A DNA stretch of 64,000 nt from assembly GCF_054482525.1 (NCBI RefSeq), contig NZ_CM137006.1; one strand, given 5' to 3'. How positions within the stretch are numbered: the stretch's first letter is position 1; the number at the start of each line of letters is the position of its first letter. The notes beneath the pieces are model-generated. The model saw nothing but the letters and a program-made list of their open reading frames with translations. It searched no databases and was not told the DNA's origin. This document shows, in pieces, positions 2-6,328 of this stretch. Position numbers and translations under genes: made by a program.

Positions 2-268
2 AATACTCAGAAAATTTTCCGCTGGGTGGAGAAAGACACCCCTGATGCGGTTAAAAAAATTCAGGCGTTGTTACCAGCTATCGAAAAAGCAATGCCACCT
101 CTGCTGGTGGCCCGAATGCGCAGTCATAGCTCAGCCTATTTTCGGGAACTAGTGGAGACGCGGGAACGACTGGTGAGAGACGCTGATGATTTTGTCGCAG
201 TGGCGATCGCTGGTTTCAACCAGATGAATCGTGGTGGCCCTGCAGGAAATATTGTGGCTGTGCATTGA
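2..268 (+). CDS. 3' end of a phage gene that is open at the window start; unknown function
   Basis: Reading frame is open from base 2 with no upstream stop; first in-frame start in window is GTG at 26. Confidence 0.3.
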   Translation, partial: NTQKIFRWVEKDTPDAVKKIQALLPAIEKAMPPLLVARMRSHSSAYFRELVETRERLVRDADDFVAVAIAGFNQMNRGGPAGNIVAVH

Positions 269-333: not shown

Positions 334-1410
334 GTGAGTATGGCTAACGCCTGGCTCAGATTATGGCATGACATGCCAAATGACCCTAAGTGGCGAACAA
401 TTGCCAGGGTGTCAGGGCAGCCAATTGCAACAGTGATGGCAGTGTATATCCACCTCCTGGTGAGCGCGTCACGAAATGTCACGCGAGGTCACATTGATGT
501 CACGACAGAAGATTTGGCAAGTGCGCTCGACGTGACAGAAGAGGTAATTGATTCAATTTTGCAGACGATGCAGGGGCGGGTACTTGATGGTGATTTAATC
601 ACTGGATGGGAAAAACGCCAGGTGCTTAAAGAGGACAACGGCAATATTTCGCAAACCGCAAAATCTCCTGCAGAGCGCAAGAGGGCGCAGCGAGAGAGGG
701 AAAGAAAGCGGGAACAAAATGGCGATTGTCACGGCGCGTCACGAAATGTCACGCACATGTCACGACGAGTCACGACAGATAAAGATACAGATAAAGATAC
801 AGATCAAGAAGATCAAAACACTATGGTCCATGGCGTAAAAAACGCCACGAACCAGGCAGGGGATGTTCAGACCGTCAATCCTGGTCAGCCAGCAGGCACG
901 ACACCGGAAGCCGATTCAGCGTATGCGCTGAAAGCCGATTCGGGCGCTGTGCAGCAGGTGATGACCGCAAGGCCGGAGCAATCACACCAACTGCAGCAGC
1001 CTGAAGCCGATTCCGCCATTCAGCGGGAAGCCGATCGGGTAGTCCCGGAAAGCACCGGGCAGTCTGTGGGACGAGTGGATTATCCGGATGTGTTCGAACA
1101 GGTCTGGCGGGAGTACCCGTTGCGTGCTGGGGCAAACCCGAAGAAATCCGCTTTCAGTGCTTGGAAGGCCAGATTACGCGAGGGGGTGCCACCAGAGGCC
1201 ATGCTGGATGGCGTGAGGCGTTACGCAAGATACTTGGCGGCTACCGGGAAAACGGGAACGGAATTTGTTCAGCGAGCGACGACGTTTTTTGGACCGGATC
1301 GGAATTTTGAGAACCCCTGGTTGCTCCCGGTAAGCGGCACGAACAACCAGCGTTGTGTGAATCATATTTCTGAACCGGATAACGAAATTCCGCCGGGCTT
1401 CAGGGGGTAA
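334..1410 (+). CDS. Putative phage replication protein with DnaT-like C-terminal domain
   Basis: 358 aa; C-terminus ...SEPDNEIPPGFRG resembles the E. coli DnaT C-terminus as recalled; acidic DKDTDKDTDQEDQ linker; two clusters of GTCACG direct repeats inside the ORF. Confidence 0.5.
   Translation: MSMANAWLRLWHDMPNDPKWRTIARVSGQPIATVMAVYIHLLVSASRNVTRGHIDVTTEDLASALDVTEEVIDSILQTMQGRVLDGDLITGWEKRQVLKEDNGNISQTAKSPAERKRAQRERERKREQNGDCHGASRNVTHMSRRVTTDKDTDKDTDQEDQNTMVHGVKNATNQAGDVQTVNPGQPAGTTPEADSAYALKADSGAVQQVMTARPEQSHQLQQPEADSAIQREADRVVPESTGQSVGRVDYPDVFEQVWREYPLRAGANPKKSAFSAWKARLREGVPPEAMLDGVRRYARYLAATGKTGTEFVQRATTFFGPDRNFENPWLLPVSGTNNQRCVNHISEPDNEIPPGFRG
466..780. repeat. Two clusters of iteron-like direct repeats (GTCACG x4 each), candidate phage origin inside the replication gene
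   Basis: gcgcgtcacgaaatgtcacgc...gtcac..gtcacgacag occurs at about 466-510 and again at about 735-780. Confidence 0.5.
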
Positions 1411-1450: not shown

Positions 1451-1876
1451 GTGGCAAAAGTTTTTACACAAGAAGAGCGGGAAAAAATTAAAGGGCAGGT
1501 TGTTGAACTTGTACGTCTGAGCGGTCGCGAGACGTTGCGGCAACTGGAAGCCAGGACAGGTGCGACAAGATATCTGATGAGTGTTCTCGCCAGAGAGCTG
1601 GTTGCCAGTGGCGATGTATACAACTCTGGTTACGGGTTATTCCCGTCTGAACAGGCGCGTAAGGACTGGCAAAATGCTCGCAAAAAACTCTCAAGGGCAA
1701 AGGTGAAGAAACCTGCAGTGGTTGATCCGGACCTTATCTGGTCGTTACCAGACGGCGAAATACGCCGCTACGACAGGCGCCTGAATATAATCTGTCGCGA
1801 GTGCCGGAAGAGCGAAGCTATGCAGCGTGTACTGGCATTTTATCAAGGAAATGTTAGGTATTTTAGACGTTACTAG
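1451..1876 (+). CDS. Hypothetical phage early protein
   Basis: 141-aa ORF directly downstream of the replication gene, same strand; no family recognised. Confidence 0.4.
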   Translation: MAKVFTQEEREKIKGQVVELVRLSGRETLRQLEARTGATRYLMSVLARELVASGDVYNSGYGLFPSEQARKDWQNARKKLSRAKVKKPAVVDPDLIWSLPDGEIRRYDRRLNIICRECRKSEAMQRVLAFYQGNVRYFRRY

Positions 1877-2029: not shown

Positions 2030-2716
2030 ATGACCCCAATAAAAATATTTATGACTATTGCTGATTTCAAACGGCCTAAATTGGAGCTCCCAAACGGGGC
2101 AAACAAACTACTACTGCACTCTTGCTGTGCTCCATGTTCCGGTGAAGTGATGGAGGCGCTTCAGGCCTCGGGAATCGACTACACCATCTTTTTCTACAAC
2201 CCGAACATTCATCCTCAGAAAGAGTATTTAATTCGTAAGGATGAAAATATTCGCTTTGCTGAACAACACGGCGTGCCGTTTATCGATGCTGATTACGACA
2301 CCGACAACTGGTTTGAACGTGCCAAAGGAATGGAATGGGAGCCTGAGAGGGGGATCCGTTGTACCATGTGTTTTGACATGCGTTTTGAGCGGACAGCGTT
2401 GTACGCTGCTGAAAATGGTTTCAGTGTGATCAGCAGTTCACTGGGCATTTCACGCTGGAAAAATATGCAGCAGGTTAACGAGTGTGGGCGGCGAGCTGTT
2501 GCGCATTATCCGGGTATGGTGTACTGGGATTATAACTGGCGCAAGCAGGGCGGCTCGTCCCGTATGATTGAAATCAGCAAGCGCGAAAAATTCTATCAGC
2601 AGGAATATTGTGGCTGTGTGTATTCTCTGCGCGATACCAATCTACACCGCAAATCTCAGGGACGCCCTCTTATCAAAATTGGCCAACTCCACTACGGAAA
2701 AGAAGAGAAGGAGTGA
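2030..2716 (+). CDS. queH: QueH-like (DUF208) epoxyqueuosine reductase
   Basis: 228 aa with [11 protein letters not shown] near the N-terminus, [20 protein letters not shown] and C-terminal QEYCGCVYS motifs, recalled as the QueH cysteine signature; own upstream TTGACA at 1904-1909. Confidence 0.6.
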
Positions 2717-2952
2717 TTTTATGGATCACCTTTCTGATTGATTTTATATTGGCGAGGTAACGGGAGTTAAGTAGAATGGCTGCGGGTGCTTGAGGCTATC
2801 TGTCTCAGGCATGAACACCAAAGGCAGATAGAGAAAAGCCCCAGTTAACATTACGCGTCCTGCAAGACGCTTAACATTAATCTGAGGCTCAATCTATGAA
2901 CGGCAAATCTAGGTTAGCCTCTTACGTGCCGAAAGGCAAGGAGAAGCAGGCT

Positions 2953-3108
2953 ATGAAGCAGCAAAAGGCGATGTTAATCGCCCTGATCGTCATCTGTTTA
3001 ACCGTCATTGTGACGGCACTGGTAACGAGGAAAGACCTCTGCGAGGTACGAATCCGAACCGGCCAGACGGAGGTCGCTGTCTTCACAGCTTACGAACCTG
3101 AGGAGTAA
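2953..3108 (+). CDS. hokD: Hok/Gef-family type I toxin; in-frame Mok-like N-terminal extension begins at 2896
   Basis: MKQQKAMLIALIVICLTVIVTALVTRKDLCEVRIRTGQTEVAVFTAYEPEE (51 aa) matches Hok/Gef/RelF as recalled; GCTTGAGGC leader motif at about 2788-2800. Confidence 0.7.
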   Translation: MKQQKAMLIALIVICLTVIVTALVTRKDLCEVRIRTGQTEVAVFTAYEPEE

Positions 3109-3940: not shown

Positions 3941-4219
3941 ATGGCGCACGATACCAAATTACACAATTCTGATGATTCTGCCGTCTTTGCCAGCAGGCAC
4001 GGGCGGCGTTCCCGCACTTTCAAATCTGACTGGTTCCAGCATGACCCATGTACTGAAGAACAGGCCGAATGGCTAATTCATAACTATCGCAGACGCGGAT
4101 ACGAGATTAAGAAAGCCCTCAGCCTCGATTATCGTCACTGGATAATCTATGTCAGGCTCCCTTATTCCGAACGCCCACCGCGCCCATCCCGCACATACCA
4201 GCAACGGATCTGGAGGTAA
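3941..4219 (+). CDS. Hypothetical nin-region protein (possibly YbcO/DUF1364-like)
   Basis: ORF 3860-4219; internal Met at 3941 (MAHDTKLHNSDD...) chosen because a terminator occupies 3844-3868. Confidence 0.35.
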   Translation: MAHDTKLHNSDDSAVFASRHGRRSRTFKSDWFQHDPCTEEQAEWLIHNYRRRGYEIKKALSLDYRHWIIYVRLPYSERPPRPSRTYQQRIWR

Positions 4220-5270
4220 CGTGCGGATATTACTTCGACCTGTTCTGGTACCGGAACTCGGGCTGGTGGTCCTTAGGCCGGGCCGTGAATCCATGCAAGT
4301 ATTTCATAACCCTCGAGTGCTGGTGGAGCCTGAACCGAAAAGCATGCGCGGTCTGCCGTCCGGAGTCGTCCCTGCCGTTCGCCAGCCGCTGGCGGAGGAT
4401 AAATCATTACTGCCATTTTTCAGCGATGAGCGGGTGATTCGTGCTGCTGGCGGCGCTGGGGCGCTGTCTGACTGGCTGTTGCGTCATGTCAAATCCTGCC
4501 AGTGGCCTCATGGTGACTATCATCACAGTGAAATCGTCATACATCGTTACGGTACCAGCGCGATGGTGTTGTGCTGGCACTGCGACAACCAGTTGCGTGA
4601 CCAGACATCCGAATCACTCGGGCAACTTGCTCATCAAAACCTGTCAGCATGGATGATTGACGTCATACGCCATGCAATGAATGGCACGCAGGAGCGGGAA
4701 TTGTCGCTGGCTGAATTATCTTGGTGGGCGGTCTGCAATCAGGTGGCGGACGCGCTTCCGGAGGCAGTATTACGTCGTTCTCTGGGGGTACGTGCGGAAA
4801 AAATCCGCTCCTTGTACCGCGAAAGCGACATCGTACCGGGAGAGCAGACCGCCACCAGCATACTGAAGCAGCGCACAAAAAATCTTGCGCCGTTGCCTCA
4901 TGCCCACCAGCAACAGAACCCACCACAGGAAAAGACGGTGGTATGCATCACCGTTGATCCGGAGTCTCCGGAATCTTTCATGAGGCGACCTAAACGTCGC
5001 CGTTGGCTAAATGAGAAATATACGCGCTGGGTGAAGACACAGCCGTGTGCGTGTTGTGGTCAGCCAGCCGACGATCCCCATCACCTGATTGGTCACGGTC
5101 AGGGAGGGATGGGAACAAAGGCCCACGATATTTTCACGCTACCGTTGTGCCGGGAACATCACAACGAACTTCATGCGGATCCGCTGGCGTTCGAAGAAAA
5201 GCATGGTTCCCAGGTTGATTTAATTTTTCGTTTTCTTGATCACGCCTTTGCAACCGGCGTGCTCGGGTAA
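4149..5270 (+). CDS. DUF968-like protein with C-terminal HNH-type zinc motif
   Basis: C-terminus CACCGQPADDPHHLIGHGQGGMGTKAHDIFTLPLCREHHNELH; same position as ydfU-type genes upstream of rusA/Q in E. coli prophages; start ambiguous (4149 or 4290). Confidence 0.5.
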   Translation: MSGSLIPNAHRAHPAHTSNGSGGNVRILLRPVLVPELGLVVLRPGRESMQVFHNPRVLVEPEPKSMRGLPSGVVPAVRQPLAEDKSLLPFFSDERVIRAAGGAGALSDWLLRHVKSCQWPHGDYHHSEIVIHRYGTSAMVLCWHCDNQLRDQTSESLGQLAHQNLSAWMIDVIRHAMNGTQERELSLAELSWWAVCNQVADALPEAVLRRSLGVRAEKIRSLYRESDIVPGEQTATSILKQRTKNLAPLPHAHQQQNPPQEKTVVCITVDPESPESFMRRPKRRRWLNEKYTRWVKTQPCACCGQPADDPHHLIGHGQGGMGTKAHDIFTLPLCREHHNELHADPLAFEEKHGSQVDLIFRFLDHAFATGVLG

Positions 5271-5282
5271 AAGAGGTTACTG

Positions 5283-5642
5283 ATGCGTATAGAGTTTGTT
5301 TTGCCTTATCCGCCGACGGTGAATACTTACTGGCGACGTCGTGGCAACACATATTTTGTATCAAAAGTCGGTGAGCGTTATCGCCGTGATGTGGCACTAA
5401 TTGTTCGCCAGCAGCGGTTGAAATTAAACCTGTCCGGAAGGCTGGCAATAAAAATTATTGCAGAGCCACCGGATAAGCGCCGCCGCGACCTGGACAATAT
5501 CCTGAAGGCACCACTGGATGCGCTGACGCATGCCGGACTTCTCATAGACGACGAGCAGTTTGATGAAATCAATATTGTGCGCGGACTGCCTGTTCCTGGT
5601 GGTCGGCTGGGGATAAAAATCACAGAACTGGAGTGCGCATGA
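5283..5642 (+). CDS. rusA: Holliday junction resolvase RusA
   Basis: 119 aa; LPYPPTVNTYW, RRRDLDNILKAPLDAL and GGRLGIKITELE align with RusA as recalled. Confidence 0.8.
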   Translation: MRIEFVLPYPPTVNTYWRRRGNTYFVSKVGERYRRDVALIVRQQRLKLNLSGRLAIKIIAEPPDKRRRDLDNILKAPLDALTHAGLLIDDEQFDEINIVRGLPVPGGRLGIKITELECA

Positions 5643-6328
5643 ATAACCAGTATTTACAGTTTGTGCGTGAGCAGCTCATTATCGCCACCGCTGATTTGAG
5701 TGGGGCAACAAAAGGTCAGCTTGAAGCCTGGCAAGAGAATGCCATGTTCGATACAGGGCGTTACAGGCGAAAAAAAATCCGGTACCGCGATGAAGTGACT
5801 GGAAAAATGATAACGCGGGATAATCCACCAATCCCGGGAAAGCAATCGCTGGCGAAGGGGACGTCAATTCCTCTGGTCAGTCCGGTTGAGTTTTCGACAT
5901 CATCGTGGCGGCGGGCTGTTTTGTCTCTTGAAGAACATCATAAAGCCTGGTTGTTGTGGTGTTACAGCGGGAGTATTTGTTGGGAATATCAGATCGCGAT
6001 AACACAGTGGGCGTGGAATGAATTTAATACTCAATCCGGTACCAGAAAAATTGCAGGGAAAACGCAGGAACGCCTGAAAAAATTAATCTGGCTGGCGGCG
6101 CAGGCAGTAAAAGCAGAACTTTTTGGTGGGGAAGGTTATGAATACCAGGAGCTGGCATTACTGGCGGGAGTGACAACTAAAAACTGGTCCAAAACATTTA
6201 CTCGTCACTGGGTTGCAATGAAACACATTTTTCACCGACTTGATAGTGAGGCTTTATTGTTTGTAATGAGAACACGTTCAAAACAAAAGGCGGCATTTTC
6301 AAAGCAAAGTATTGCAAAAGTAGATTGA
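5633..6328 (+). CDS. Putative late-gene antiterminator (Q-like)
   Basis: 231 aa directly downstream of rusA and upstream of a terminator, tRNA cluster and lysis genes; assignment by position only. Confidence 0.45.
   Translation: MRMNNQYLQFVREQLIIATADLSGATKGQLEAWQENAMFDTGRYRRKKIRYRDEVTGKMITRDNPPIPGKQSLAKGTSIPLVSPVEFSTSSWRRAVLSLEEHHKAWLLWCYSGSICWEYQIAITQWAWNEFNTQSGTRKIAGKTQERLKKLIWLAAQAVKAELFGGEGYEYQELALLAGVTTKNWSKTFTRHWVAMKHIFHRLDSEALLFVMRTRSKQKAAFSKQSIAKVD

What the first reader, a model, noticed from the sequence alone, without database searches (positions are those of the whole stretch)
334..1410. Iteron-like repeat clusters inside a replication gene with a DnaT-like C-terminus
Seen: two clusters of four GTCACG repeats at about 466-510 and 735-780, roughly 270 bp apart and in-frame so the protein also repeats (SRNVT...), with an acidic DKDTDKDTD linker and a C-terminus ending ...SEPDNEIPPGFRG. 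Established: lambda carries its origin iterons inside gene O; DnaT is a host primosome protein. Inference: the phage origin lies inside this gene and its product may recruit the host PriA/DnaT-type primosome rather than a P/DnaC-type loader, since no loader-sized gene follows.
Basis: partly seen in the sequence, partly recalled or inferred. Interest (0 to 1): 0.45.

Follow-up and report, generated by a model that had tools for sequence, protein, structure and literature searches.

The report
Phage origin inside loaderless initiator gene
This is the replication initiator gene of a very common E. coli lambda-like prophage, with the phage origin built into its own coding sequence; its last 19 residues match the host protein DnaT, a motif that in phages almost always sits next to a DnaC-type helicase loader, which suggests how phages with no loader gene borrow the host's.

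Summary
GTCAC(G/A) occurs nine times on one strand in 307 nt: four copies at 468-504 and five at 728-774, spaced 10-11 nt (P about 3e-15). The repeats are a DNA feature. They fall in all three codon phases and exceed all 2000 synonymous-codon permutations. In homologs 45-47% identical, both clusters switch together to GTAACG. Cluster 2 is followed by an AT-rich tandem repeat and a conserved palindrome, the oriλ layout. An origin inside the gene is well supported.

The DnaT likeness is significant but covers only the last 19 residues (RCVNHISEPDNEIPPGFRG). The protein is not a DnaT family member.

No loader gene exists in the window. However, 75 of 98 phage loci with this tail have a DnaC homolog directly downstream, and none has λ P. 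Conversely, 74 of 80 phage DnaC genes follow a tail-bearing or tail-like gene. E. coli dnaT-dnaC and Rac ydaU-ydaV have the same layout.

Best reading: a λ-O-like initiator that recruits host DnaB-DnaC through this tail. It is a new variant of a known kind, and it bears on two questions the literature calls open.

The parts
340..1410 (+). Initiator gene (356 aa; ATG 340, stop 1408-1410). An in-frame GTG lies at 334.
   Evidence: ORF list. Full-length match to phrog_3729 'replication initiation protein', E 2e-257. 99% identical to P0001 'phage replisome organizer', a cluster of 5786 sequences.
340..615 (+). Codes for the N-terminal helical plus winged-helix domain (aa 1-92), the presumed iteron-binding domain.
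   Evidence: AF2 model, pLDDT 74-89 over this part. Weak Foldseek matches to winged-helix regulators only. Pfam Phage_rep_org_N aligns end to end but with E 0.24. PHROG replisome-organizer families E 5e-6 to 2e-4.
468..504 (+). Iteron cluster 1: GTCACG at 468, 478 and 499, and GTCACA at 488, spaced 10/10/11 nt. Encodes a disordered loop (aa 43-55) inside the N-domain.
   Evidence: Loop has pLDDT below 50 at aa 46-49. Homologs have indels exactly here in units of two repeats.
531..536 (-). Single inverted copy of the iteron core (CGTGAC on the + strand).
   Evidence: Invariant in 43 of 44 distinct relatives. Function unknown.
728..774 (+). Iteron cluster 2: five GTCACG copies at 728, 738, 748, 759 and 769, spaced 10/10/11/10 nt. 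Encodes the start of the disordered linker (aa 130-145).
   Evidence: GTCAC cores vary at 2 of 45 positions against 8 of 39 spacer positions in 44 distinct sequences.
775..822 (.). AT-rich stretch, the presumed DNA-unwinding element. It contains 2.9 copies of ACAGATAAAGAT (775-809) and encodes the acidic DKDTDKDTDQEDQ.
   Evidence: GC 27.5% at 780-819, against roughly 40-70% in the other 40-nt windows across the gene. TRF result. Copy number varies from 2 to 6 among close relatives. The equivalent (GATAAA/GATACA)n stretch follows cluster 2 in L004-L006, L008 and L093.
824..854 (.). 31-nt palindrome: TGGTCCATGGCG, a 7-nt A-rich loop, then CGCCACGAACCA.
   Evidence: (I14). Conserved as a hairpin-capable element in L001, L004-L006, L008, L009 and L093, including initiators with a different N-domain and different iterons. 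Its position matches that of the oriλ palindrome, which I recall from my own knowledge.
1072..1329 (+). Codes for the C-terminal three-helix domain (aa 245-330). It belongs to a large family with no Pfam model.
1351..1407 (+). Codes for the C-terminal tail RCVNHISEPDNEIPPGFRG (aa 338-356), shared with DnaT residues 161-179. Presumed docking motif for the DnaC-type loading machinery.
   Evidence: Association with DnaC homologs shown.
26..268 (+). Context: the upstream cII-like gene, cut by the window start.
   Evidence: phrog_163 E 2e-13. Gene order matches λ cII-O-P-ren.
1451..1876 (+). Context: LygF/DUF977, a Ren-like gene, starting about 40 nt after the initiator. This is where relatives carry dnaC plus one further ORF.
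   Evidence: phrog_142 E 5e-46. A roughly 1.5-kb indel relative to DnaC-carrying relatives.

Best explanation
ORF 340-1410 encodes the origin-binding initiator of a lambdoid prophage, and the phage origin is written into the gene itself.

Origin: the N-terminal winged-helix domain is inferred to bind short GTCAC(G) iterons phased one helical turn apart. They form two arrays about 230 nt apart. One array lies in the codons for a surface loop of that same domain. The other lies at the start of the disordered interdomain linker. Oligomerisation on the arrays would strain and open the adjoining AT-rich 12-nt tandem repeat. A conserved palindrome lies just beyond it.

Loading: the C-terminal part consists of a three-helix domain plus a flexible 19-residue tail, RCVNHISEPDNEIPPGFRG. 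It is inferred to recruit the replicative helicase. This phage has no loader gene. The tail is the signature of proteins encoded immediately upstream of DnaC-family loaders: host DnaT, Rac YdaU, and more than 11 phage initiator families. The most likely route is therefore direct capture of the host DnaB-DnaC complex through the tail. In effect the protein would act as an origin-specific counterpart of DnaT.

What is shown: the repeat anatomy, its DNA-level selection, its co-variation across lineages, the absence of a loader gene, and the statistical coupling of tail and DnaC.

What is inferred: binding of the N-domain to the repeats, unwinding at the AT-rich stretch, and the tail's partner.

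My confidence is about 0.85 that the origin lies in the gene and about 0.5 that the tail engages DnaC or DnaB-DnaC.
For: Repeats
- The cluster is far beyond chance and is maintained against the genetic code.
- Copies fall in all three codon phases.
- Cores are nearly invariant while spacers vary in 44 distinct relatives.
- Homologs at 45-47% identity (L004-L006) have GTAACG instead, again in two clusters. In L004 and L005 the spacing is again 10/11 nt and the two clusters are near-identical within each genome; L006 is less regular.
- Indels occur in whole repeat units.

Origin layout
- The order iterons, AT-rich stretch (27.5% GC), palindrome is conserved across lineages. It matches the position of the annotated oriλ iterons inside O and the gene order cII-O-(P)-ren.

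Loader
- There is no P, DnaC or helicase gene between the initiator and Q, nor any DnaC-like sequence in the 64 kb.
- The same initiator (>=95% identical C-domain) occurs with a DnaC homolog 10 nt downstream in 5 loci and without one in 62.

Tail
- Tail-only hhalign against DnaT gives P 8e-16.
- 75 of 98 tail-bearing phage loci, from at least 11 N-domain families and several unrelated C-domains, have DnaC within 200 nt downstream. None has P.
- 67 of 80 phage DnaC loci are preceded by the strict tail, and 7 more by a relaxed form.
- 0 of 71 λ-P loci have it.
- Relatives with the same N-domain and core but another tail are followed by P.
- E. coli dnaT sits directly upstream of dnaC. Rac YdaU carries the tail and is followed by YdaV, 50% identical to DnaC.
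- The tail is retained in loaderless lineages, including phage LLS.

Viability
- Tritos, whose module is about 95% identical, forms plaques on MG1655 (PMC9928086).
Against: - No experiment exists. Neither origin activity nor any tail-partner contact has been shown for this family.
- The tail-DnaC coupling is a genomic association between adjacent genes, which are co-inherited. The loci are not phylogenetically independent, so the P values are descriptive only.
- In the 2026 preprimosome structures the DnaT C-terminal domain docks on PriA, and the authors suggest that the DnaT N-terminal domain recruits DnaB/DnaC (PMC13377028). The text I could read does not say what residues 161-179 do.
- 23 of 98 tail-bearing loci lack DnaC. 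That is also what one would expect if the tail served something other than DnaC.
- Six phage DnaC genes are preceded by divergent C-termini (FIPEDF, KPPEFN).
Confidence: 0.55

Rival explanations
1. The DnaT-like tail docks the initiator onto PriA (or PriA-PriB), so the opened origin is handed to the host restart primosome (PriA-PriB-DnaT), which then loads DnaB. Replication would depend on PriA.
For: The tail is shared with DnaT. The DnaT C-terminal domain contacts PriA through a hydrophobic interface in PDB 9ZBT/9ZBU (PMC13377028). There is no loader gene in the window. Other elements (phiX174, ColE1-type plasmids, Mu) do use PriA-dependent loading, which I recall from my own knowledge.
Against: Phage genes carrying the tail are overwhelmingly followed by their own DnaC homolog: 75 of 98 one way, 74 of 80 the other. 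A PriA-docking role does not predict this. The initiator lacks the DnaT three-helix ssDNA-binding domain (PF17948), which is the modelled PriA-proximal element. PF17948 itself occurs in initiators paired with λ P, without the tail.
Confidence: 0.15
2. The tail (with the C-domain) binds DnaB itself or another host replisome protein such as SSB or DnaG. The link to DnaC is then indirect: initiators that contact the helicase directly need a DnaC-type loader rather than a P-type one.
For: The tail persists in loaderless lineages from several unrelated initiator families, so its partner must be host-encoded. DnaA and PriC are reported to contact DnaB directly (PMC12122000 abstract).
Against: Nothing separates this from the DnaC model. 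The near-obligate adjacency to dnaC-family genes, including host dnaT-dnaC, is explained more simply by a DnaC contact.
Confidence: 0.15
3. The loaderless module is not self-sufficient. It depends on a DnaC homolog supplied in trans by another resident prophage, for example Rac YdaV, rather than on host DnaC.
For: Phage DnaC homologs are common in E. coli prophages, and K-12 itself carries ydaV. Tritos was plated on MG1655, which contains Rac (PMC9928086). The module matches up to 7 places per genome.
Against: The loaderless form is the majority (62 of 67 window-type loci). The module (initiator plus LygF) is covered at >=80% in 1525 of 5426 complete E. coli genomes. Dependence on a repressed gene of another prophage would be fragile. 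The host DnaC is 45-51% identical to the phage DnaC homologs compared here over their full length.
Confidence: 0.08
4. The repeats are not an origin. They are operator sites for autoregulation or for another regulator, or a protein-level repeat, and the origin lies elsewhere. The tail would then be a degradation or regulatory tag.
For: No replication assay exists. λ O is an unstable ClpXP substrate (my own knowledge), so C-terminal tags are conceivable. A weak promoter-like match overlaps cluster 2 on the minus strand.
Against: Copies lie in three codon phases, so this is not a peptide repeat. They are followed by the AT-rich stretch and the palindrome, exactly as in oriλ. Other initiators in this group carry their own in-gene iterons. 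The tail is shared with stable host DnaT and tracks the loader type.
Confidence: 0.05

Closest known systems
Phage λ O protein and oriλ (with loader P)
   Same: Same gene order: cII, initiator, (loader), ren-like. Iterons lie inside the initiator gene at the junction of the N- and C-domain codons (λ gene nt 349-433 of 900; here 389-435 of 1071). They are followed by an AT-rich stretch that encodes the flexible linker, then a palindrome (the palindrome in λ is from my own knowledge).
   Different: No detectable sequence homology to O (BLAST E > 0.2; no PF04492 hit). The iterons are 10-11-nt units with a 5-6-nt core, rather than 18-nt sites about 20-24 nt apart. A second array lies inside the N-domain codons. 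There is no P gene. The C-terminus carries the DnaT-type tail instead of λ O's ...KLDLTNTDWIYGVDL.
E. coli DnaT (primosomal protein i) and the dnaT-dnaC operon
   Same: The last 19 residues share the motif RD(V/I)NxxSxPDxxIPxGFRG-COOH (74% identity between family consensuses, P 8e-16). In relatives, the tail-bearing gene sits directly upstream of a DnaC-family gene, as dnaT does.
   Different: There is no DnaT N-terminal domain and no PF17948 three-helix ssDNA-binding domain. The NCBIfam DnaT model scores 19 bits against a cut-off of 201. The protein is a sequence-specific origin binder, not a fork-restart factor. In this window no dnaC follows.
Rac prophage YdaU-YdaV of E. coli K-12 (region of oriJ)
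   Same: YdaU ends ...RQVNTVSLPDSAIPPGFRG and is followed 6 nt later by YdaV, 50% identical to DnaC. The upstream regulators are of the same YdaS/YdaT type as in relatives of the window gene.
   Different: YdaU has a DUF1376 N-domain and a different C-terminal core. Rac keeps its own DnaC homolog.
'O-only' lambdoid phages such as LLS (PQ299149)
   Same: The replication module has a single initiator gene and no loader or helicase. The LLS O protein also ends in the tail (...GPVDTKIPEGFRG). The 2025 Genome Research paper states that 34 of 314 lambdoid phages are of this type and that their replication 'is not yet understood' (PMC12315714).
   Different: LLS has a different N-domain, resembling the HTH_36-type initiators seen (by eye, not tested), and a different C-core. 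It is followed by a methyltransferase gene rather than LygF.
SPP1 G38P-type 'replisome organizers' (Pfam Phage_rep_org_N) with an origin inside the gene
   Same: NCBI names this family 'phage replisome organizer'. Pfam PF09681 aligns over the whole N-domain. PHROG replisome-organizer families match. That the origin lies within the organizer gene is known for SPP1 (my own knowledge).
   Different: The Pfam match is below threshold (E 0.24). The SPP1 system uses G39P plus its own helicase G40P. The host range and the C-terminal half are unrelated.
DopC/DopE of Cellvibrionales and Oceanospirillales (Brezellec et al. 2017, PMC5509034)
   Same: An O-like N-terminus fused to a 'DnaT C-terminal' element, presented as a domesticated phage initiator.
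   Different: DopC is paired with a P-like protein (DopE) and has no iterons. Its DnaT match (to PDB 2ru8) may be to the three-helix domain, as in the PF17948-plus-P prophage genes. Whether DopC carries the IPxGFRG tail was not checked.

Membership tests
λ-type replication module (initiator gene containing its own origin) | Direct repeats (iterons) inside the initiator gene, between the N- and C-domain codons | tested here: met
   Five GTCACG copies at 728-774 (gene nt 389-435), plus a second array at 468-504. λ iterons lie at gene nt 349-433.
λ-type replication module (initiator gene containing its own origin) | An AT-rich stretch next to the iterons, followed by an inverted repeat | tested here: met
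   GC 27.5% at 780-819. Palindrome at 824-854, conserved in relatives.
λ-type replication module (initiator gene containing its own origin) | Iteron sequence co-varies with the initiator's DNA-binding domain | tested here: met
   GTCACG here and in Tritos. GTAACG in both clusters of L004-L006, whose proteins are 45-47% identical. Other repeats occur in initiators with other N-domains.
λ-type replication module (initiator gene containing its own origin) | Sequence homology to λ O (Pfam PF04492) | tested here: not met
   No Pfam hit. BLASTP against λ O gives E > 0.2.
λ-type replication module (initiator gene containing its own origin) | A dedicated helicase loader (P, DnaC-like) or helicase gene immediately downstream | tested here: not met
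   The next genes are LygF/Ren-like, a phrog_3217 ORF of unknown function, MokW, an HNH protein, RusA and Q. tblastn finds no DnaC-like sequence in the 64 kb; λ P was not searched across the whole window.
λ-type replication module (initiator gene containing its own origin) | The fragment supports initiator-dependent autonomous replication | not testable with these tools
   Needs a plasmid replication assay.
DnaT (primosomal protein i; NCBIfam NF002770, Pfam PF17948) | Whole-protein match above the curated cut-off | tested here: not met
   19.2 bits against a cut-off of 201. Only residues 333-356 align, to DnaT 156-179.
DnaT (primosomal protein i; NCBIfam NF002770, Pfam PF17948) | The three-helix ssDNA-binding domain (PF17948, DnaT 84-153) | tested here: not met
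DnaT (primosomal protein i; NCBIfam NF002770, Pfam PF17948) | The C-terminal motif RDxNxxSxPDxxIPxGFRG at the very C-terminus | tested here: met
   phmmer against PDB 6aep gives E 0.003. tblastn gives 60% identity over 25 aa. Tail-only profile comparison gives P 8e-16.
DnaT (primosomal protein i; NCBIfam NF002770, Pfam PF17948) | Function in PriA-PriB-dependent restart | not testable with these tools
   Needs genetics or biochemistry.
Phage replisome organizer (Pfam PF09681 Phage_rep_org_N) | N-terminal domain matches the family model | tested here: inconclusive
   Aligned over residues 5-122 to model positions 1-118 of 121, but E 0.24. PHROG replisome-organizer families E 5e-6 and 2e-4. NCBI's name for the cluster is 'phage replisome organizer'.
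DnaD-like C-terminal domain (DDBH2) | Fold similarity of the C-terminal helical domain | tested here: inconclusive

The most novel reading that the evidence does not exclude
The C-terminal peptide RDxNxxSxPDxxIPxGFRG is a portable docking motif for DnaC (or the DnaB-DnaC complex). Phage initiators from many unrelated families use it to bring the loader-helicase complex to their origins. 'O-only' lambdoid phages, including this one, Tritos and LLS, use it to take the host's DnaB-DnaC directly. In E. coli DnaT the same tail would be the long-sought link between the PriA-PriB-DnaT preprimosome and DnaB-DnaC. The dnaT-dnaC operon would then be a domesticated phage initiator-loader cassette.
Probability: 0.4. 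Interest if true: 0.8.

Novelty: new variant of a known kind. Interest (0 to 1): 0.6.

Why it matters
About 28% of complete E. coli genomes (1525 of 5426) carry at least 80% of this module (initiator plus the downstream LygF gene), yet RefSeq often labels the gene 'hypothetical protein'.

A 2025 survey states that lambdoid phages with only an O-like gene and no loader (34 of 314) have a replication mechanism that is 'not yet understood' (PMC12315714). The data here give a concrete and cheap-to-test answer. These initiators keep the C-terminal motif that otherwise accompanies DnaC-family loaders, so they probably use the host's DnaC-DnaB.

The same motif ends host DnaT. [quoted passage not shown] A DnaT-DnaC contact has only been speculated from the operon structure (PMC5778457). 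The phage comparison points to specific residues to delete or mutate in DnaT.

On the practical side, the iteron, AT-rich and palindrome map gives a defined origin for typing or engineering these prophages, which include Stx-phage relatives.

Tried and rejected
- **Pfam on the whole protein and on 15 C-terminal family members:** nothing significant.
- **Foldseek of the full-length AF2 model against PDB:** no match with E < 1, only weak winged-helix regulators. The full-length model is poor (mean pLDDT 56) because residues 128-244 are disordered.
I therefore rejected 'DnaT-like domain' in favour of 'DnaT-like tail'.
- **DnaA boxes:** none in or near the repeats. The nearest relaxed match is at 1462.
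- **Promoter and terminator scan:** no more sites than in shuffled sequence.
- **A hidden loader elsewhere in the window:** tblastn with four phage DnaC homologs and E. coli DnaC found nothing. PHROG scans of the ORFs between the initiator and Q found no loader or helicase.
- **Literature:** searches for 'DnaT-like' and 'PPGFRG' found nothing. The Eru paper on Stx-phage replication regions does not mention DnaT or iterons. McCool 2004 on dnaT822 is not held. The residue-level PriA-DnaT interface is not given in the text of the 2026 structure paper.
- **LygF as a substitute loader:** rejected, because LygF is also present downstream of DnaC in DnaC-carrying relatives and is absent from some loaderless ones.
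Full report
**Observation.**
- GTCACG occurs on the plus strand at 468, 478 and 499, with a variant GTCACA at 488.
- It occurs again at 728, 738, 748, 759 and 769. One inverted copy lies at 531-536.
- Spacing within each array is 10 or 11 nt.
- The hexamer is not enriched in the window as a whole (31 copies against 28 expected). However, 8 of its 20 plus-strand copies lie within 307 nt. Poisson P is 3e-15, about 1e-8 after correcting for all hexamers and windows.
- A perfect 19-nt repeat at 466 and 736 is offset by 270 nt, so ASRNVT occurs twice in the protein.
- The acidic DKDTDKDTD is encoded by 2.9 copies of a 12-nt tandem unit at 775-809.
- The ORF ends ...VNHISEPDNEIPPGFRG.

**Identity and context.**
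- The gene most likely starts at ATG 340 and encodes 356 aa. It matches PHROG 3729 'replication initiation protein' end to end (E 2e-257).
- It is 99% identical to a protein cluster of 5786 sequences that NCBI calls 'phage replisome organizer'.
- The module (initiator plus the downstream LygF gene) is covered at >=80% in 1525 of 5426 complete E. coli genomes, where the initiator is often annotated only as 'hypothetical protein'.
- It is also present in isolated phages, including Tritos, Evi and vB_EcoS-689R5. There it is annotated variously as 'DNA replication protein O', 'Primosomal protein I' or 'replisome organiser'.
- The flanking genes are a cII-like gene upstream and a Ren-like LygF/DUF977 gene downstream. 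This is the λ order cII-O-P-ren with the P position empty.

**The repeats are a DNA feature, not a peptide feature.**
- Because the spacing is 10-11 nt, successive copies fall in all three codon phases. They are read as Ser-Arg, Val-Thr or Cys/Gly-His.
- With the amino-acid sequence held fixed, 2000 synonymous-codon permutations gave a mean of 2.4 and at most 7 copies of GTCAC(G/A), against 9 observed.
- Among 44 distinct near-identical sequences from viral contigs, the GTCAC cores vary at 2 of 45 positions and the spacers at 8 of 39 (Fisher P 0.04).
- One relative has a 21-nt insertion that adds two further GTCAC copies to cluster 1.

**Comparative evidence for an origin.**
- Full-length homologs 45-47% identical in protein (L004, L005, L006) carry GTAACG instead of GTCACG, again in two arrays. 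In L004 and L005 the spacing is again 10/11 nt, the arrays are 272-282 nt apart, and the two arrays within one genome are almost identical 40-mers. L006 is less regular.
- Protein alignment shows length variation exactly at the two array positions.
- Initiators of the same group with other N-domains have other in-gene repeats. For example, mEp460_ev081 has five 23-nt units in mid-gene.
- Co-variation of repeat sequence with the initiator lineage, and concerted change of both arrays, is the behaviour expected of iterons bound by the gene's own product.

**Rest of the origin anatomy.**
- Directly after array 2 the GC content falls to 27.5% at 780-819, against roughly 40-70% in the other 40-nt windows across the gene.
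- The 12-nt unit there varies from 2 to 6 copies among close relatives.
- A 31-nt palindrome follows at 824-854.
- The same order (iterons, a (GATAAA/GATACA)n stretch, AAAACAC, then the palindrome) is found in L004-L006, L008, L009 and L093. The palindrome also occurs in L001, whose N-domain and repeats are different. This explains why the peptide NT(L/M)VHG(E/V)KNA is conserved inside an otherwise disordered linker.
- No DnaA box lies in the region.
- This is the λ layout. The λ record annotates four iterons at gene nt 349-433 of O. The AT-rich stretch and palindrome to their right are from my own knowledge of oriλ.

**Protein architecture.**
- AlphaFold2 gives an N-terminal helical plus winged-helix domain (aa 1-92, pLDDT 74-89). 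The array-1 peptide forms a low-confidence loop between two of its helices.
- A basic helix spans aa 110-127.
- A disordered stretch spans aa 128-244. It contains the array-2 peptide and the acidic segment.
- A C-terminal three-helix domain and a disordered tail follow.
- Modelled alone with 100 homologs, the C-terminal 127 aa reach a mean pLDDT of 85.
- The constrained DNA elements therefore sit in loop or linker codons, where the protein tolerates them.
- The C-terminal core belongs to a large family (4098 representatives at E <= 1e-3) that has no Pfam model.

**The DnaT similarity.** It is real but short.
- The NCBIfam DnaT model aligns only residues 333-356, to DnaT 156-179 (19 bits against a cut-off of 201).
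- PDB DnaT chains match the same stretch.
- tblastn with E. coli DnaT gives 60% identity over 25 aa.
- A profile comparison of 15 phage C-termini with 10 DnaT C-terminal halves gives 97% probability. When split, the 19-residue tail alone gives P 8e-16, while the helical cores give only 16% probability.
- The protein is therefore not a member of the DnaT family. It shares with DnaT the C-terminal motif RD(V/I)NxxSxPDxxIPxGFRG.

**The loader question.**
- No P, DnaC-like or helicase gene lies between the initiator and the Q antiterminator, and no DnaC-like sequence is found anywhere in the 64 kb.
The relatives say otherwise. The homologs L004, L005, L006 and L008, and initiators with other N-domains but the same C-terminus (Stx phage 75/02 and L010), are each followed within a few nucleotides by a protein 45-51% identical to E. 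coli DnaC.
- Among 80 viral loci whose C-domain is >=95% identical to the window's, window-type initiators occur with a DnaC homolog 10 nt downstream in 5 cases and without one in 62. A phage DnaC is thus optional for one and the same initiator.

**Tail and loader type go together.**
- A DNA pattern for PDxxIPxGFRG-stop retrieved 98 usable viral loci. They come from at least 11 N-domain families (Pfam Phage_rep_O, DUF1376, HTH_36 and others) and several unrelated C-terminal cores, including a λ-O-like one.
- Of these, 75 have a DnaC homolog within 200 nt downstream, 23 have none, and none has λ P.
- Conversely, of 80 viral loci found through their DnaC homolog, the upstream gene ends in the strict motif in 67, in a relaxed IPxGF form in 7, and in FIPE(D/N)F or KPP(E/G)FN in 6.
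- Of 71 λ-P loci, none has the motif; all of these, however, are close λ relatives.
- Relatives that share the window's N-domain, or its N-domain plus C-core, but carry a different C-terminal tail are followed by λ P. These P-associated tails, like that of λ O, contain an LDxxxW motif.
- In E. coli K-12 itself, dnaT ends two nucleotides before dnaC starts.
- The Rac prophage gene ydaU ends ...LPDSAIPPGFRG and is followed by ydaV, 50% identical to DnaC.
- These counts are not phylogenetically independent, and adjacent genes are co-inherited. They are a strong association, not proof of contact.

**State of the literature.**
- A 2025 study of lambdoid phages reports that phage LLS and 34 of 314 phages encode only an O homolog with no loader, and that the replication of this type 'is not yet understood' (PMC12315714). 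The LLS O protein also ends in the tail (...GPVDTKIPEGFRG).
- Tritos, whose module is about 95% identical to the window's, produces virions and plaques on MG1655 (PMC9928086). The loaderless module therefore works.
- For DnaT, a 2018 review notes that dnaT lies directly upstream of dnaC and that an interaction is 'tempting to speculate' (PMC5778457).
- The 2026 preprimosome structures state that how DnaB/DnaC is recruited 'remains unknown', and suggest a role for the DnaT N-terminal domain (PMC13377028).
- I found no paper describing the tail motif or its link to DnaC.
- Brezellec et al. 2017 noted a DnaT C-terminal element in the domesticated O-like protein DopC, which is paired with a P-like protein. 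That may correspond to the PF17948 domain that I also see in P-associated prophage initiators. I did not check whether DopC has the tail.

**Proposed mechanism.**
1. The initiator binds its phased iterons in the two arrays through the winged-helix domain.
2. It oligomerises and opens the AT-rich tandem repeat next to array 2.
3. Through its C-terminal domain and tail, it brings in the host DnaB-DnaC complex. It would thus act as an origin-specific analogue of DnaT.

The following are shown:
- the repeat anatomy;
- selection on the repeats at the DNA level;
- lineage co-variation of the repeat core;
- the conserved AT-rich and palindrome elements;
- the absence of a loader gene;
- the tail's restricted similarity to DnaT;
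- the tail's coupling to DnaC-family genes.

DNA binding, unwinding and the tail's partner are inferred.

**Rivals kept open.**
- The tail docks on DnaB or another host protein.
- A resident prophage supplies DnaC in trans.
- The repeats are regulatory rather than an origin.

**Verdict.** The in-gene origin is an ordinary feature of lambdoid phages, here in a distinct form: short helically phased iterons in two arrays. The loaderless arrangement and the tail-DnaC coupling make this a new variant of a known kind. It is of more than routine interest because it turns two acknowledged open questions into simple experiments.

Noticed in passing
window 824-854; also L001, L004-L006, L008, L009, L093: A 31-nt palindrome lies just right of the AT-rich stretch. 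It is conserved across initiators with different N-domains and iterons, with arm changes that keep the pairing. It encodes the oddly conserved linker peptide NT(L/M)VHG(E/V)KNA.
   Followed up: partly
window 775-809; L012-L091: The 12-nt unit ACAGATAAAGAT varies from 2 to 6 copies among otherwise near-identical relatives. The acidic linker, which is also the AT-rich element, is therefore length-polymorphic.
   Followed up: partly
L094 (λ O), L009, L092, L093; L297-L376: Initiators followed by λ P end in a different shared motif, LDxxxW (λ O: KLDLTNTDWIYGVDL; others LDCEEW, LDCQEW, LDCPDW). This suggests that the extreme C-terminus generally encodes loader specificity.
   Followed up: partly
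L092 2501-3538 (O157-type prophage): A protein with the window-type N-domain (85% identical over the aligned stretch) carries the DnaT ssDNA-binding domain PF17948 in place of the window's C-core. It lacks the DnaT tail and is followed by λ P. All parts of DnaT except its N-domain therefore occur separately in phage initiators.
   Followed up: partly
L295 3120-4730 (E. coli K-12 Rac prophage): YdaU (DUF1376) ends in the DnaT-type tail and is followed 6 nt later by YdaV, 50% identical to DnaC. This mirrors the host dnaT-dnaC pair (L007).
   Followed up: yes
L296 10214-11068 (phage LLS, PQ299149): LLS is the experimentally grown 'O-only' phage whose replication is described as not understood. 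Its O protein ends ...GPVDTKIPEGFRG, the same tail.
   Followed up: yes
L001 2580-2605 and 2831-2842 (Stx phage 75/02 initiator); P0033, P0126: Initiators with the MRDY-type N-domain repeat GGGGCTTC (peptide EGA(S/L)KGL) once in the N-domain codons and once just before the acidic linker. This is the same two-array layout with a different repeat.
   Followed up: no
L002 2428-2557 (mEp460_ev081 'Primosomal protein I'): Five 23-nt direct repeats lie in the middle of another loaderless, tail-bearing initiator gene.
   Followed up: partly
window 531-536: A single inverted copy of the iteron core lies 27 nt after array 1. It is unchanged in 43 of 44 distinct relatives. Its role is unknown.
   Followed up: no
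window 1072-1329 and P0121-P0268: The C-terminal three-helix core (motif YPxEFExxWxxYPKRaGgNsK...TFFGP) defines a family with 4098 representatives at E <= 1e-3. No Pfam model covers it.
   Followed up: partly
window 2030-2716, 2896-3108, 4149-5270, 5283-5642, 5633-6328: Downstream genes are a 228-aa Cys-rich ORF (phrog_3217, unknown function, apparently a moron), a MokW/Hok-like toxin ORF, an HNH/DUF968-type protein, RusA and a Q-like antiterminator.
   Followed up: no
L098-L214 (loaderless, tail-bearing loci): In 16 of 23 loaderless loci LygF/DUF977 starts 41 nt after the initiator. In several of the others the next ORF is a small protein that looks winged-helix-like by eye; that was not tested. 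LygF is also present downstream of DnaC in DnaC-carrying relatives, so it is probably not a loader substitute.
   Followed up: partly
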